Below the pieces are notes generated by a model, which searched no databases, was not told the DNA's origin, and worked only from the letters and a program-made list of their open reading frames with translations. This document shows, one piece after another, positions 7,928 through 46,260 of a stretch of DNA of 64,000 bases. The stretch covers positions 1 to 64,000 of the IMG/VR virus record IMGVR_UViG_2721755710_000007, one strand, 5' to 3'. The DNA comes from a virus. Taxonomy: Duplodnaviria; Heunggongvirae; Uroviricota; Caudoviricetes. Both the position numbers and the translations under genes were made by a program. Each line of letters begins with the position of its first letter. Within the stretch, counting starts at the first letter, position 1.

Positions 7928-8149
7928 ATGCAATCCATTAACTTCCGTACCGCGCGCGGCAACCTTTCTGAAGTGCTCAACAATGTTGAAGCCGGGGAAG
8001 AGGTTGAAATCACCCGCAGAGGCCGTGAGCCAGCAGTAATTGTCAGCAAGGCTACTTTCGAAGCCTACAAAAAAGCGGCGCTGGATGCTGAATTTGCATC
8101 CCTGTTTGACACCCTGGACTCCACCAACAAGGAACTGGTTAACCGATAA
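7928..8149 (+). CDS. phd: Phd antitoxin (73 aa)
   Basis: Sequence matches P1 Phd as I recall it ([41 protein letters not shown]...); overlaps doc start. Confidence 0.9.
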
Positions 8150-8529
8150 TGAGGCATATATCACCGGAAGAACTTATTGCGCTTCATGATGCGAATATAA
8201 GCCGCTACGGCGGCCTGCCGGGAATGTCAGATCCGGGTAGGGCAGAGGCCATTATCGGGAGAGTTCAGGCCAGAGTTGCCTACGAAGAGATCACCGACCT
8301 TTTCGAAGTCTCCGCCACCTACCTGGTGGCTACAGCGAGAGGGCATATATTCAATGATGCCAATAAGCGTACCGCGCTAAACAGCGCGCTGCTATTTCTA
8401 CGCCGTAACGGGGTGCAGGTATTTGATTCACCTGAACTGGCAGACCTTACCGTAGGGGCTGCGACCGGAGAGATATCTGTATCTTCTGTCGCCGACACGT
8501 TACGTAGATTGTATGGTTCTGCGGAGTAG
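8149..8529 (+). CDS. doc: Doc toxin (126 aa)
   Basis: Fic/Doc family sequence immediately after phd with ATGA start/stop overlap. Confidence 0.9.
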
Positions 8530-43137: not shown

Positions 43138-43983
43138 ATGCTGGCTAAAGTCACTTTCCTGAGCTGTATAACGATGAGCGATTTTACTTTTTCTGGCTAT
43201 GAATTGGCCTTCTTTGTAACACACTCCGGTCTATCCCGTAGCGCCGGGCATATCCTGTCGCAATGTGCAAATCTCGCGGCAACAACCAGTGAATACTTCA
43301 TTCACAAGCCCCACCGCCTGATCGCGGCAGAAACTGGTTATAGCCAATCAACCGTCGTTCGTGCATTCCGTGAAGCTGTAAACAAAGGAATTCTATCTGT
43401 AGAGATTGTTATCGGCGATCACCGTGAACGTCGCGCTAACCTGTACCGGTTTACACCATCCTTTTTGGCCTTCGCACAACAAACCAAAAATGCGCTGATT
43501 GAAAGCAAATTAAAGATCTCTTCAGCGGCAACCAAGGTTAAAGCTGTTCTCGCTAAGACATTGGCTTTATTTGATTTTTTATCCACACCCCCATGTCAAA
43601 ATGATACCCCCTCCCCCTGTCAGGATGACGTGGCAATAAAGAATAAGAAGTCACAAGTTAAAAAAACAAAAAGATCAGTTTCCGGCGGTGCCGGAACGAC
43701 CAGACTCAAAAAATTGACTTCATGGATCGCTGAGGCAAAAGCAAAGGCTGACAATCTGCGGTTATCCAAAAAACGCGCTCAAAAACATGAGTTCAAGCAG
43801 AAAGTAGAGGCGGCTGCGCGGAAATATGCTTACCTGAAGAACAAGCGTTCGCCTGATATTGGCGGGATATCAAACTTCGATAATCTACCGCATTGCATGA
43901 CGGTAAACGAAGCTCTTAATGCGGTTTTAGCCAAAAATAAAGATAACGAAAAATGGGGTATACCGGCAGGATTCAGGGGGTGA
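43138..43983 (+). CDS. repL: RepL lytic replication protein (281 aa)
   Basis: 281-aa ORF (MLAKVTFLSCITMSDFTFSGYELAFFVTHSGLSRSAG...) recognised as RepL. Confidence 0.8.
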   Translation: MLAKVTFLSCITMSDFTFSGYELAFFVTHSGLSRSAGHILSQCANLAATTSEYFIHKPHRLIAAETGYSQSTVVRAFREAVNKGILSVEIVIGDHRERRANLYRFTPSFLAFAQQTKNALIESKLKISSAATKVKAVLAKTLALFDFLSTPPCQNDTPSPCQDDVAIKNKKSQVKKTKRSVSGGAGTTRLKKLTSWIAEAKAKADNLRLSKKRAQKHEFKQKVEAAARKYAYLKNKRSPDIGGISNFDNLPHCMTVNEALNAVLAKNKDNEKWGIPAGFRG

Positions 43984-43986
43984 TAG

Positions 43987-44003
43987 ATTGCTCTAATCTG
44001 GAG
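43987..44003 (+). promoter_or_regulatory. C1 operator-like site
   Basis: attgctctaatctggag. Confidence 0.45.
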
Positions 44004-44034
44004 TCACCTGGCGTTTTCAGTTTGAGGTCGGAGA

Positions 44035-44279
44035 TGCAATCTGATTTTTTACAGTTAGCGATCGCTTTTGCAGGATATGTTTGTATTGGCTTCTGTGTAT
44101 ACATGATCAGCCGAAAAATGCTTGTCGATATCTACCGCAAAGAACGAGCAGAGGAGATCTTAGTATGGATTTTCTTTGGCGCGGTCTGGCCATTAGGGAT
44201 CATGTTTGCTGCAACATTTCTTCTGATGTGGATATTCACCCTTCCAGGTGATTTCTATAGAAAAAAAGCCAGACATTGA
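44035..44279 (+). CDS. small membrane protein (81 aa from internal Met)
   Basis: Two hydrophobic helices; ORF-track entry 43953-44279 probably over-extended. Confidence 0.4.
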
Positions 44280-44402
44280 TACAATCGTTGCGGGTGCTTG
44301 AGGCTATCTGCTTCAGGCATGACCCGAAAAGCAGATAGAAGAAAGCCCCAGATAACATTACGCGTCCTGCAAGACGCTTAACATTAATCTGAGGCCATAT
44401 CT

Positions 44403-44609
44403 ATGCTTAGCATACGTAGATTAGCCTCTTACCGACCAAAAGGTCAAGGAGAAGCAGGCTATGAAGCAGCAAAAAGCGATGTTAATCGCTCTGATCGTCA
44501 TCTGTCTAACCGTCATTGTGACGGCACTGGTAACGAGGAAAGACCTCTGCGAGGTACGAATCCGAACCGGCCAGACGGAGGTCACTGTCTTCACAGCCTA
44601 CGAATCTGA
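44403..44609 (+). CDS. mok-like overlapping reading frame
   Basis: 68-codon ORF overlapping the hok-like gene in another frame. Confidence 0.4.
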   Translation: MLSIRRLASYRPKGQGEAGYEAAKSDVNRSDRHLSNRHCDGTGNEERPLRGTNPNRPDGGHCLHSLRI

Positions 44610-44616
44610 AAGGTAA
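44461..44616 (+). CDS. hok: Hok/Gef-family membrane toxin (51 aa)
   Basis: MKQQKAMLIALIVICLTVIVTALVTRKDLCEVRIRTGQTEVTVFTAYESER resembles Hok; GC hairpin ggcggggagtgatccccgcc just downstream. Confidence 0.8.
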   Translation: MKQQKAMLIALIVICLTVIVTALVTRKDLCEVRIRTGQTEVTVFTAYESER

Positions 44617-44970
44617 GAGACCTGGCGGGGAGTGATCCCCGCCACTCTTCGTGTGTCTGGTAACCTCAATGCACCCTTTTCTCCCCAATAGTGTAAAACA
44701 CAATGAAGTAGAAGGAGTTATTTCACATCATGCAAAGATTCAGACCATATCTCCCAATAGCCTTCGCGACATGATGACTTTCAGAAATATCTAGCTGTTA
44801 ACAAAATTCCATACTTGCTTTGCTAATACCACCTAGATTATATATGGAAAAATACACCTAAAACTTAAACAAATTATATCCACAACAAACATCCATCTAT
44901 TAGGATTAAAATTAATTTAATAATAAATAATACAACACCGGTTCATTTTCTAACAAACCGGTGGGCACCA

Positions 44971-46041
44971 TTATTGGAATAACTTACTGATTACATTAAA
45001 AACATTAAGGGCGTTACTTGCCACACTAGACATCTTGGCTGAATTTTTTTCGATTGAGTCAAGAACACTTTCGACTTCCGATAAAGTTCTTCTGCTATCT
45101 GCATCTTTTCCTGAGTCTATCGCATCTTTAATTGCAGATATAGCAGACTCTAAATTCTCCTTAAACTCACCTGTCGTCTCATCCTTCAAGAGAAGTTCTA
45201 ACTCTTGTTTAAGTTTTTCCAATGATGCTCTTTTCTCATCAGTTTTACTAATCTTCCCTGAATAACTGACACAAACACATTCTCTTTTATTGCAGACAGG
45301 ACAACCATTTAGATAATAACTTTCAAACGCCTCGCCAAGATCATCATCTTTAAAAATAATCCCCCATAAAGAAAACAACCAAGCATATATATCAGCACAC
45401 TCTTCATGAAGATTTTCTTTGTTGTAATTTTTATCTTCAATTGATTTAGCATAAGCCTCTTGCAACTCACCCAACTCTTCGAATAACCTGGATGAATGAT
45501 AAAACCCACCAAAAGTAGACCAAATGGTTCTATTCGACGGATAGATGTCATTAATCATTCGTGGCGCATAAGGCGGAAATTGCATAGGTTTAATAGCGTT
45601 ATATTTATTGAAAAGCTCATCTTTAATTCCTTTTGCGCTTCTTATTTTCTCTGGCTTTCTGTGTGTTTGAGAACAGGAACAAGGCGCCCCTAAGCAATAA
45701 GGACAGCAACTAGGAAATTTTTTATAAAATGCTTCCTGTGGTTGTATTTCAAGTTTATCACAGATTGCAAAAAGCCAAGACAATGCTTCTATATAGGTAT
45801 TTTTTAATAATTCTTTATCCTGATTACCATCACGAATAAACTCACGTGTTAAATAAGCTGTTTTCCTTGTCAGATAAGAGTACATATACTCAAATGATTT
45901 TTCTTCATTTTTTTTGCTGTAAATACCTACAATAATATTGCTCATATCATTGATACGTAACATGACATTCCTCTTAAATAAGCCAATACTTCCTAGAACC
46001 ATATATGTTTCGACAAAGATTAACGGACATCTTGCCTTCAC
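44971..46041 (-). CDS. hypothetical protein with MazG-like pyrophosphohydrolase motif and two Cys clusters (up to 356 aa)
   Basis: EELGELQEAY...EECADIYAWL (E-x2-E...E-x2-D); CCPYCLGAPCSCS and CPVCNKRECVCV; AT-rich. Confidence 0.4.
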   Translation of the reverse strand: MKARCPLIFVETYMVLGSIGLFKRNVMLRINDMSNIIVGIYSKKNEEKSFEYMYSYLTRKTAYLTREFIRDGNQDKELLKNTYIEALSWLFAICDKLEIQPQEAFYKKFPSCCPYCLGAPCSCSQTHRKPEKIRSAKGIKDELFNKYNAIKPMQFPPYAPRMINDIYPSNRTIWSTFGGFYHSSRLFEELGELQEAYAKSIEDKNYNKENLHEECADIYAWLFSLWGIIFKDDDLGEAFESYYLNGCPVCNKRECVCVSYSGKISKTDEKRASLEKLKQELELLLKDETTGEFKENLESAISAIKDAIDSGKDADSRRTLSEVESVLDSIEKNSAKMSSVASNALNVFNVISKLFQ

Positions 46042-46260
46042 AAACTTTGACGCTACATAAATTTAACCATGTGCATACTAAATATTTAAGGTAGAAAAGT
46101 ATAGGAGTATTTATTAATAGGTAACTGTTAGTTTACACTCACTTCATACCAGAGTATTTACAAGATGTTATTTTACTCTATTCGCTAGGCGGTGGAATGC
46201 GGTTGTATCAAGGGGAGGTAAACCTCCCCCGAAGAAGATTAAAAGTACAAGGGATAACAC

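What the first reader, a model, noticed from the sequence alone, without database searches (positions are those of the whole stretch)
44380..44650. hok/mok-like toxin locus between repL and the late genes
The 51-aa ORF is a clear Hok/Gef-family toxin with an overlapping mok-like frame and a downstream GC hairpin. An antisense sok-like RNA would be expected around 44380-44460 on the minus strand but I cannot define it.
Basis: partly seen in the sequence, partly recalled or inferred. Interest (0 to 1): 0.35.

Follow-up and report, generated by a model that had tools for sequence, protein, structure and literature searches.

The report
Intact hok/mok/sok toxin-antitoxin cassette
This is an ordinary, complete hok/sok-type toxin-antitoxin module (a small membrane toxin kept silent by an antisense RNA) on a P1-like phage-plasmid; the same sequence is already annotated in hundreds of public plasmids.

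Summary
The 51-aa ORF (44461-44616, +) is a Hok/Gef toxin (Pfam 2.4e-22). It is overlapped by a 68-aa mok-like frame (44403-44609).

The hok mRNA runs from about 44292 to about 44684. It carries every regulatory element known from plasmid R1:
- a 5' tac box (44292-44303) that pairs with a 3' fbi box (44664-44676), with compensatory changes in relatives;
- an anti-Shine-Dalgarno box upstream of mok;
- a mok-start target hairpin with a YUNR loop;
- a GC hairpin that lies inside the transcript, upstream of fbi.

The antisense Sok-like RNA can now be placed, by homology to the annotated sokW (phage 933W) and sokC (K-12). It lies on the minus strand, from 44411 down to 44335-44341. Its promoter is TTGACC-18 nt-TAATCT (44447-44418).

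The cassette is 100% identical to plasmids where RefSeq annotates 'hokD'. It occurs at 95% identity or more in about 478 PLSDB plasmids, and is 87.5% identical to hokW-sokW, which has been shown experimentally to be a type I TA system. In canonical P1 the same site holds rlfA/rlfB.

Verdict: already known, low interest. Transcript and toxicity were not tested here.

The parts
44258..44285 (+). Predicted hok mRNA promoter: -35 TAGAAA (44258-44263), 16-nt spacer with a TG-extended -10, and -10 TACAAT (44280-44285). It lies inside the 3' end of the upstream 81-aa ORF.
   Evidence: Promoter scan, (9/12 match, TG before -10). The -10 aligns with TAGAAT of 933W and Rac. It sits 6 nt upstream of the conserved 5' end GGGUGC.
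44292..44684 (+). Full-length hok mRNA. The 5' end is inferred from family conservation. The 3' end is uncertain: it falls somewhere after fbi, near the UUUUCU run at 44677-44682.
   Evidence: Homology to other hok loci begins just upstream of 44292 and ends just after 44676. The MFE fold of 44292-44690 closes the molecule by 5'-3' pairing (z -7.7). The consensus structure of 26 loci is 98.8% paired with 12 compensatory pairs.
44292..44303 (+). tac box GGGUGCUUGAGG, the 5' translational activator element.
   Evidence: Invariant in relatives except position 4 (U or C) and position 12. It pairs with fbi in the full-length fold (duplex -21.6 kcal/mol). It pairs with the adjacent GCUUCAGGC..ACCC as a metastable 5' hairpin in the truncated fold. 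It pairs with ucb in the near-MFE open form.
44345..44349 (+). ucb / anti-SD box GCCCC, which sequesters the mok Shine-Dalgarno sequence in the closed form.
   Evidence: It is paired with 44391-44395 in the MFE. This helix (alignment columns 56-66 with 95-107) has 4 pairs with compensatory changes. The element name follows PMC9841398.
44335..44411 (-). Sok-like antisense RNA gene, 71-77 nt. The 5' end is at 44411 and the 3' end at 44341 (sokW mapping) or 44335 (sokC mapping). It has a 17-nt single-stranded 5' tail, a long hairpin and a UUUCUUCU tail.
   Evidence: Coordinates were transferred from the annotated sokW (AF125520) and sokC (NC_000913) through alignment. The fold is -32.9 kcal/mol, z -5.7, with 0 of 200 shuffles folding as well (77-nt version). 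The transcript itself was not observed.
44418..44447 (-). Predicted sok promoter: -35 TTGACC (44447-44442), 18-nt spacer, -10 TAATCT (44423-44418). The start site is 7 nt downstream of the -10, at 44411.
   Evidence: Read directly from the sequence. The hexamers are among the best-conserved leader columns across 26 loci (0.93 and 0.88). The consensus scan did not report it, because its -10 matches only 3 of 6 positions (T1, A2, T6).
44391..44428 (+). mok translation-initiation region folded as the Sok target hairpin. It comprises the mok SD GAGG(C) (44391-44395), the stem AUCUAUG/CGUAGAU holding the mok AUG (44403), a 9-nt loop CUUAGCAUA with a YUNR motif, and the dcb box GCCUC (44424-44428).
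   Evidence: Local fold -13.8 kcal/mol. An equivalent hairpin is predicted in most relatives, with different stem sequences. With SD/dcb enforced, the truncated RNA adopts the tac/ucb stem only 2.6 kcal/mol above the MFE.
44403..44609 (+). mok-like leader ORF, 68 codons. It starts 58 nt before hok, is out of frame with hok, and ends 7 nt before the hok stop.
   Evidence: A mok-like ORF with a GAGG SD is present in 23 of 26 related loci, at -58 (out of frame) or -57 (in frame).
44461..44616 (+). hok toxin gene (51 aa, MKQQKAMLIALIVICLTVIVTALVTRKDLCEVRIRTGQTEVTVFTAYESER), preceded by the SD AAGGAG at 44446-44451.
   Evidence: Pfam PF01848 E 2.4e-22. PHROG 251 E 4.9e-32. 42% identity to R1-type Hok. 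47/51 identical to HokW of 933W (sequences). Annotated hokD, WP_001313475.1, in an identical plasmid.
44624..44643 (+). GC-rich hairpin GGCGGGGA-GUGA-UCCCCGCC. This is the inferred 3' protective stem-loop of the processed hok mRNA.
   Evidence: Conserved helix 13 (columns 340-347 with 359-366) with one compensatory pair. It lies upstream of fbi. No T-run follows it, and the scan reported no terminator here. The role is inferred from R1.
44664..44676 (+). fbi box CCUCAAUGCACCC (fold-back inhibitory element), complementary to tac with one bulged U.
   Evidence: The pair tac4:fbi covaries: U-A in 16 loci, C-G in 8 Photorhabdus loci, one G-U and one mismatch.

Best explanation
The region 44258-44684 is an intact hok/mok/sok type I toxin-antitoxin cassette carried as cargo by a P1-like phage-plasmid.

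Proposed mechanism:

1. A weak promoter makes a stable ~390-nt hok mRNA.
2. The full-length RNA is locked shut. Its 5' tac box pairs with the 3' fbi box, and the mok Shine-Dalgarno sequence is paired with an upstream anti-SD box. It is therefore neither translated nor bound by Sok.
3. Slow 3' trimming back to the GC hairpin removes fbi.
4. tac then pairs with the anti-SD box. The mok start region refolds into a hairpin whose loop is recognised by the single-stranded 5' tail of Sok.
5. Sok is a short, unstable antisense RNA made from a strong promoter on the opposite strand. While Sok is present, the duplex is degraded.
6. If the plasmid is lost, Sok decays. mok is then translated, hok is translated by coupling, and the 51-aa Hok peptide damages the inner membrane and kills the plasmid-free cell.

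Shown here: all sequence and structure elements, their conservation and their covariation.

Inferred from R1 hok/sok and from hokW-sokW: transcription of both RNAs, 3' processing, RNase III cleavage, toxicity and the stabilising phenotype.
For: - **Toxin domain:** (E 2.4e-22).
- **Leader:** it matches Rfam RF01794 at 113.9 bits. The same model hits K-12 hokC/sokC, 933W hokW/sokW and an R1-type hok locus.
- **tac/fbi pairing:** seen in the MFE (z -7.7), with a U-A to C-G compensatory change across genera.
- **Whole-mRNA consensus structure:** 98.8% paired, against 37-46% when slid. It has 12 compensatory pairs, against 0-3 when slid.
- **Sok-like RNA:** it folds far better than shuffles (z -5.7). 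Its ends map consistently from two independently annotated sok genes.
- **Target hairpin:** it has a YUNR loop and is conserved in relatives.
- **Open conformation:** tac/ucb plus SD/dcb lies within 2.6 kcal/mol of the MFE.
- **mok ORF:** present in 23 of 26 relatives.
- **Conservation on plasmids:** identical or >=95% identical cassette in ~478 PLSDB plasmids, mostly ~95-kb and non-mobilizable. It is 100% identical on plasmids where RefSeq annotates hokD.
- **Closest studied homologue:** hokW-sokW (87.5% nt identity) was shown experimentally to be a toxin/antisense-antitoxin pair that depends on RNase III and Hfq (PMC8621323).
- **R1 mechanism:** as summarised in PMC9841398.
Against: - No transcript, processing or toxicity data exist for this exact locus.
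- The sok -10 (TAATCT) matches the consensus at only 3 of 6 positions, so the automatic promoter scan missed it.
- No clear intrinsic terminator follows fbi. R1-type and Rac loci have one. Here there is only a weak local hairpin plus UUUUCU, so the 3' end is uncertain.
- The unconstrained MFE of the truncated RNA keeps the closed SD/anti-SD helix.
- The element already has phd/doc, so a second addiction module is not strictly needed.
- Many chromosomal hok loci are known to be inactive.
Confidence: 0.9

Rival explanations
1. The cassette works as a hok/sok system, but its selected role in this phage-plasmid is to help the lytic cycle rather than post-segregational killing. On induction, Sok falls or hok-sense transcription rises. 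One possible route is read-through from the C1-controlled kilA-repL operon just upstream on the same strand. Hok then damages the membrane and speeds lysis and phage release, as shown for hokW-sokW in prophage Sp5.
For: - In Sp5, hokW-sokW advances growth arrest by about 40 min and doubles phage release after mitomycin C. sokW RNA disappears on induction (PMC8621323).
- The window's cassette is 87.5% identical to that locus.
- It lies 300 nt downstream of repL on the same strand. It occupies the place of P1's C1-controlled rlfA/rlfB.
- An 11-nt remnant of the C1 operator Orlf sits at 43987-43997.
- The element already has phd/doc for addiction.
Against: - There are no expression data.
- A terminator-like hairpin at 44236-44251 lies between the upstream genes and hok.
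- The full set of R1-type elements for delayed activation fits post-segregational killing equally well.
- The two roles are not mutually exclusive.
Confidence: 0.25
2. The locus is an inactive relic, like several chromosomal hok loci of E. coli K-12. It is carried passively and has no function.
For: - K-12 hokC lacks fbi because IS186 sits just downstream, which shows that such decay occurs.
- Some relatives lack tac, fbi or a mok start.
- The terminator seen after fbi in R1-type and Rac loci is missing here.
Against: - Every tested element is intact in the window: both promoters, tac, fbi, the anti-SD box, mok, hok and the GC hairpin.
- The cassette is kept at >=95% identity in ~478 plasmids.
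- The sok promoter hexamers are closer to consensus than those of the functional 933W locus.
Confidence: 0.06
3. The main benefit of the cassette is defence of the host against other phages by abortive infection. Host transcription shut-off by an infecting phage would deplete Sok and release Hok. From memory, this has been reported for R1 hok/sok against T4.
For: This rests on general knowledge of hok/sok biology, recalled rather than tested here. The cassette sits in a variable cargo site of P1-like elements. That site also holds other accessory genes: rlfA/rapA (DUF3800) in P1/P7, and a MazG-like gene here.
Against: There is no PADLOC match for Hok or its neighbours. No data exist for this locus.
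Confidence: 0.1

Closest known systems
hokW-mokW-sokW of Stx2 phages 933W / Sp5 (VT2-Sakai)
   Same: - 87.5% nucleotide identity over the whole cassette.
- Hok is 47/51 identical.
- The order of tac, anti-SD box, mok, hok, GC hairpin and fbi is the same.
- sokW is annotated at the homologous position.
- The system is phage-borne.
- It was shown experimentally to be a type I TA system.
   Different: - mokW is in frame with hokW (start at -57, 70 aa). Here mok starts at -58 and is out of frame (68 aa).
- The Sok 5' tail and target loop differ (GCUAAGCAUAGAUAU here against GUUCAGCAUGGAUUG), so cross-recognition is doubtful.
- The host element is a lambdoid integrated prophage, not a plasmid prophage.
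hok/sok (parB) of plasmid R1 and IncF relatives
   Same: - The architecture is the same, and all named elements align: tac, mok SD/AUG, dcb, the hok SD CAAGGAGAAG, GC hairpin and fbi.
- mok starts at -58 and is out of frame, as in the window.
- The Rfam model hits both.
- The plasmid-maintenance setting is the same.
   Different: - Hok identity is only 42%.
- R1-type loci have a clear terminator hairpin after fbi that is absent here.
- The Sok hairpin here carries an extra ~18 nt.
Chromosomal hokC(gef)/mokC/sokC of E. coli K-12
   Same: - Same subfamily (Hok about 82% identical).
- sokC is annotated at the homologous position, with its 5' end at the 9th nt of mok.
   Different: - The K-12 copy has lost fbi to an IS186 insertion and is regarded as inactive.
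- Its Sok hairpin is 18 nt shorter.
phd/doc addiction module of P1
   Same: It serves the same presumed purpose (killing cells that lose the plasmid prophage) and is present on the same element at 7928-8526.
   Different: It is a type II protein-protein system and is unrelated in sequence and mechanism.

Membership tests
hok/sok (Hok/Gef) type I toxin-antitoxin loci | Small (~50 aa) Hok/Gef-family membrane toxin | tested here: met
   Pfam PF01848 E 2.4e-22, 78.7 bits against a cut-off of 22, full model coverage. PHROG 251 E 4.9e-32.
hok/sok (Hok/Gef) type I toxin-antitoxin loci | Overlapping upstream mok reading frame with its own SD, ending near the hok stop | tested here: met
   68-codon ORF at 44403-44609, with GAGG 8 nt upstream. 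Present in 23 of 26 relatives. Translational coupling itself is not testable here.
hok/sok (Hok/Gef) type I toxin-antitoxin loci | cis-encoded antisense Sok RNA gene, with its own promoter, overlapping the mok translation-initiation region | tested here: met
   Met at sequence level only. Homologous to the annotated sokW and sokC. Promoter TTGACC-18-TAATCT. Fold z -5.7. The Rfam RF01794 region matches at 113.9 bits. Existence of the transcript is not testable with these tools.
hok/sok (Hok/Gef) type I toxin-antitoxin loci | Long-range 5'-3' pairing (tac/fbi) that locks the full-length mRNA | tested here: met
   12 bp with one bulge, -21.6 kcal/mol. Formed in the MFE. Compensatory U-A to C-G change in 8 loci.
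hok/sok (Hok/Gef) type I toxin-antitoxin loci | Alternative pairings (anti-SD/ucb, dcb, metastable 5' hairpin) and an antisense target hairpin with a U-turn (YUNR) loop | tested here: met
   SD/anti-SD helix with 4 compensatory pairs. Metastable 5' hairpin. Open form 2.6 kcal/mol above the MFE. Target loop CUUAGCAUA with YUNR.
hok/sok (Hok/Gef) type I toxin-antitoxin loci | 3' exonucleolytic processing of hok mRNA, and RNase III cleavage of the Sok-hok duplex | not testable with these tools
   Only the GC hairpin that would stop trimming (44624-44643) is visible. These steps were shown for R1 and, for RNase III dependence, for hokW-sokW.
hok/sok (Hok/Gef) type I toxin-antitoxin loci | Toxicity of Hok and neutralisation by Sok | not testable with these tools
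   Shown for HokW/sokW, whose toxin is 47/51 identical.
HokD (RelF) as named by RefSeq/PGAP | Protein reaches an NCBIfam equivalog or subfamily cut-off for a specific Hok paralogue | tested here: not met
   The best NCBIfam hits are the Hok subfamily NF007279 (49.5 bits against a cut-off of 73) and HokA NF007290 (38.1 against 89). The 'hokD' label on identical plasmids therefore reflects close protein similarity, not an HMM equivalog. The protein differs at 3 of 51 residues from the chromosomal MKQQ...AVFTAYEPEE form.

The most novel reading that the evidence does not exclude
In P1-like phage-plasmids the hok/sok cassette has replaced the C1-controlled rlfA/rlfB genes directly downstream of the lytic replicon (kilA-repL). 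It keeps the same orientation and half of the C1 operator. It could therefore be wired into the lysis-lysogeny switch. In lysogeny it would be silent and act as an addiction module. After induction, read-through or loss of Sok would release Hok, which would help time lysis and raise phage yield. One type I TA system would then serve both the plasmid and the phage lifestyle of the same element.
Probability: 0.15. Interest if true: 0.4.

Novelty: already known. Interest (0 to 1): 0.1.

Why it matters
This has little impact on discovery. It is a textbook system, its toxin gene is already annotated on identical plasmids, and a close homologue has been characterised.

The practical value lies in annotation:
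- The antisense Sok gene, the mok frame and the true extent of the hok mRNA are not annotated in the matching P1-like records I inspected.
- The Rfam 'sok' model reports the strand of the hok leader, not the strand of Sok, which can mislead automated annotation.

Most sequenced P1-like plasmids appear to carry this cassette in addition to phd/doc. That is relevant to how stably these elements persist, and many of them carry resistance genes.

Tried and rejected
- **Promoter/terminator scan.** It found the hok promoter but not the sok promoter, whose -10 matches only 3 of 6 positions. It also found no terminator after hok or fbi. The sok promoter was placed instead by homology and by direct reading.
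- **Rfam strand.** The 'sok' hit is on the plus strand. I first took this as a conflict. A check on K-12 showed that the model hits the hokC strand while the annotated sokC is on the other strand. The model is therefore sense to hok.
- **Other Rfam hits.** The ceN48 snoRNA hit (25.7 bits against a gathering score of 70) and the second, minus-strand 'sok' hit (20.3 bits) are chance matches.
- **Protein libraries.** PADLOC gave nothing for Hok, the 81-aa ORF or the MazG-like protein. NCBIfam hits to Hok are below cut-off. Pfam gave nothing for mok, RepL, the 108-aa ORF or the MazG-like ORF.
- **Truncated mRNA fold.** The unconstrained MFE did not give the 'open' form. A constrained fold showed that it is nearly iso-energetic.
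- **My own labelling error.** I first labelled AGCCUCUUACC as 'ucb'. Reading PMC9841398 showed that it corresponds to dcb, and that ucb is the anti-SD box upstream of mok.
- **Literature.** A search for hok in P1-like phage-plasmids turned up no paper dealing with this cassette. The two papers I opened mention hok only on other plasmids.
- **Alignment register.** MAFFT put the 5' half of the Photorhabdus fbi one column out of register. The second tac/fbi covariation (GAGG/CCUC against GAGA/UCUC) is therefore seen only in the motif listing, not in the pair counts.

Full report
**1. What is in the sequence**

The window around the finding holds these features:
- repL at 43138-43983 (+);
- a small ORF ending at 44279;
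- a 68-aa ORF at 44403-44609 (+);
- an overlapping 51-aa ORF at 44461-44616 (+);
- a GC-rich hairpin at 44624-44643;
- an AT-rich stretch carrying a 356-aa minus-strand ORF (44971-46041).

The 51-aa product matches Pfam HOK_GEF over the full model (E 2.4e-22) and PHROG 251 'MokW-like host killing' (E 4.9e-32).

**2. Extent of the locus**

Rfam RF01794 ('sok') matches 44292-44466 at 113.9 bits (gathering score 59). Alignment with the hok loci of phage 933W and of a Rac prophage shows that homology starts just upstream of 44292. It ends just after 44676.

**3. Strand of the Rfam hit**

The hit is on the plus strand, the strand of hok. In K-12 the same model hits the hokC strand, while the annotated sokC ncRNA lies on the opposite strand inside that hit. 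The model therefore describes the hok-mRNA leader, with the sok gene lying antisense within it. The hit shows that the leader/sok region is conserved. It does not show which strand encodes Sok.

**4. Placing Sok**

- GenBank AF125520 annotates sokW (71 nt) with its 5' end at the 9th nt of mokW.
- RefSeq annotates sokC (59 nt) with its 5' end at the 9th nt of mokC.
- Both map to 44411 in the window. The 3' ends map to 44341 and 44335.

Upstream on the minus strand lie TTGACC (44447-44442), 18 nt, then TAATCT (44423-44418), with the start 7 nt further on. These hexamers are among the best-conserved leader columns across 26 related loci.

The predicted 77-nt RNA has three parts: a single-stranded 5' tail of ~17 nt, a long hairpin, and a UUUCUUCU tail. 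It folds at -32.9 kcal/mol, with z -5.7 against shuffles. The generic promoter scan did not list this promoter, because its -10 matches only T1, A2 and T6.

**5. The hok mRNA has the R1-type folding elements**

I use the element names as summarised in PMC9841398.

- **tac/fbi.** The 5' box GGGUGCUUGAGG (44292-44303) is complementary to CCUCAAUGCACCC (44664-44676) with one bulge (-21.6 kcal/mol). The MFE of 44292-44690 closes the molecule with this helix (z -7.7). Among 26 loci from Escherichia, Shigella, Kluyvera, Photorhabdus and a MAG fetched, position 4 of tac and its fbi partner are U-A in 16 loci. They are C-G in 8, G-U in one and mismatched in one. A second pair changes in concert: GAGG/CCUC against GAGA/UCUC.
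- **Anti-SD (ucb).** GCCCC (44345-44349) pairs with the mok SD region (44391-44395) in the full-length fold. That helix has four pairs with compensatory changes.
- **Metastable 5' hairpin.** Without the 3' end, tac pairs with the sequence immediately downstream.
- **Open form.** If the mok SD is made to pair with GCCUC (44424-44428, dcb), the truncated RNA forms a tac/ucb stem. The mok start then sits in a hairpin whose 9-nt loop CUUAGCAUA carries a YUNR motif. This form is only 2.6 kcal/mol above the MFE. The loop and the 5' arm are complementary to the free 5' tail of the Sok-like RNA.
- **Whole-molecule consensus.** Across the 26 loci the structure is 98.8% paired, against 37-46% when partners are slid. 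It has 12 pairs with compensatory changes, against 0-3 when slid. The structure was derived from the same alignment, so the 'paired' figure is somewhat flattering. The count of compensatory pairs is less affected.

**6. The GC hairpin**

It lies inside the transcript, 20 nt upstream of fbi. No T-run follows it, and the scan reported no terminator here. By analogy with R1, it is the 3' stem-loop that protects the processed, active mRNA after about 40 nt including fbi are removed. This role is inferred.

R1-type and Rac loci have an obvious terminator after fbi, but the window does not. Only a weak local hairpin followed by UUUUCU (about 44650-44682) is available. The 3' end is therefore uncertain.

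**7. mok**

The window's mok starts 58 nt before hok and is out of frame with it, as in the R1-type locus. In 933W, hokC-type and Photorhabdus loci it starts at -57 and is in frame, giving an N-terminally extended Hok. A 1-nt indel flips the frame between close relatives while an open frame is kept in 23 of 26 loci. That fits the accepted view that translation through mok matters, not the Mok peptide. This is inference plus established knowledge.

**8. Relatives and context**

- The cassette is 100% identical on E. coli plasmids such as pUTME-12-1, where RefSeq annotates only the toxin, as hokD.
- It is at least 95% identical in about 478 PLSDB plasmids, mostly ~95 kb and non-mobilizable.
- P1-type repL is found in 514 PLSDB plasmids. 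Most P1-like plasmids therefore probably carry the cassette, but I did not intersect the two lists.
- Phage records labelled P1/Punavirus also have it (MH422554 annotates 'MokW').
- Canonical P1 (NC_005856) has the C1 operator Orlf, rlfA, rlfB and pmgF between repL and bplB instead. P7 and RCS47 have other cargo there. This is a variable cargo site.
- Matches at 80% identity or more occur in 4721 of 5426 complete E. coli genomes.

**9. Closest studied systems**

- **hokW-sokW of Sp5/933W** is 87.5% identical in DNA, and its toxin is 47/51 identical. Takada et al. (PMC8621323) showed several things. HokW arrests growth. sokW expressed from its own promoter neutralises it, partly dependent on RNase III and Hfq. 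Both RNAs are detectable. sokW disappears and HokW appears after prophage induction. Deleting the locus halves phage release.
- **R1-type Hok** is 42% identical, and all named RNA elements align.

**10. Mechanism and function**

The best-supported reading is a working hok/sok module operating as in R1 (confidence about 0.9 for the molecular mechanism). Its biological role on this element is less certain. Post-segregational killing of cells that lose the plasmid prophage is the default.

A role in lysis after induction, as in Sp5, is a live alternative or addition. The cassette sits just downstream of the C1-controlled lytic replicon and on the same strand. An 11-nt remnant of Orlf is present at 43987-43997. 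The element already carries phd/doc at 7928-8526.

An inactive relic is unlikely, because every element is intact and the cassette is widely conserved.

**11. Novelty**

This is already known in kind, and the toxin gene is already annotated. What is added here is the placement of the unannotated sok gene, mok and the mRNA ends for the P1-like version. Interest is low.

Noticed in passing
window 44690-46100 (ORF 44971-46041, minus strand): An AT-rich block (GC 0.30-0.39, against about 0.45-0.50 in the flanks) carries a 356-aa ORF that RefSeq calls 'MazG-like family protein'. It has only a weak PHROG hit to nucleoside triphosphate pyrophosphohydrolase (E 4.3e-6). There is no Pfam or PADLOC hit, and the single NCBIfam hit is a chance-level match. 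The block is inserted between the hok cassette and bplB in only 16 PLSDB plasmids. Other P1-like elements go from fbi almost straight to bplB.
   Followed up: partly
window 43987-43997: ATTGCTCTAAT, directly after the repL stop, is the first 11 nt of P1's 17-nt C1 operator Orlf/Op55 (ATTGCTCTAATTATAAC). Homology to P1 breaks inside the operator, so the cargo swap (rlfA/rlfB replaced by the 81-aa ORF plus hok) happened at this point. Whether the half-site still binds C1 is unknown.
   Followed up: partly
window 44034-44279 (+), listed as the 108-aa ORF 43953-44279: A small hydrophobic protein of unknown function (PHROG 3772, E 3.2e-52 over residues 28-108; no Pfam, NCBIfam or PADLOC hit). Its last ~20 codons contain the predicted hok promoter. 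It travels with the hok cassette in the P1-like plasmids examined.
   Followed up: partly
window 7928-8526 (+): phd (100% identical) and doc (99% identical) of P1 are present, so the element carries a type II and a type I addiction module.
   Followed up: no
Rfam RF01794 hits: window 44292-44466 (+); L004 502-654 (-); L001 604-778 (+); L054 182-353 (+): The Rfam family named 'sok antitoxin' scores the strand of the hok mRNA leader, not the strand of the annotated Sok RNA. Automated annotation from this model would put Sok on the wrong strand, with a length of ~157-175 nt instead of 59-77 nt.
   Followed up: yes
L015 (Acinetobacter idrijaensis, 275-bp contig) and L027 (Xanthomonas pisi, 431-bp contig): Tiny contigs in assemblies of unrelated genera encode Hok fragments 100% identical to the window's protein. 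They look like contamination by E. coli or P1-derived DNA rather than real occurrences.
   Followed up: no
L030-L046 (Photorhabdus species): Photorhabdus genomes carry many copies of complete hok-type loci per genome, each with tac, mok and fbi. Their tac/fbi pair has the compensatory C-G variant.
   Followed up: partly
window 44395-44417 against relatives (alignment A2 columns ~107-135): The stretch that forms the Sok 5' tail and target loop is among the most variable parts of the leader (majority fraction 0.70). The flanking boxes are nearly invariant (0.88-0.94). This fits diversification of Sok-target specificity among the several hok loci that coexist in one cell.
   Followed up: partly
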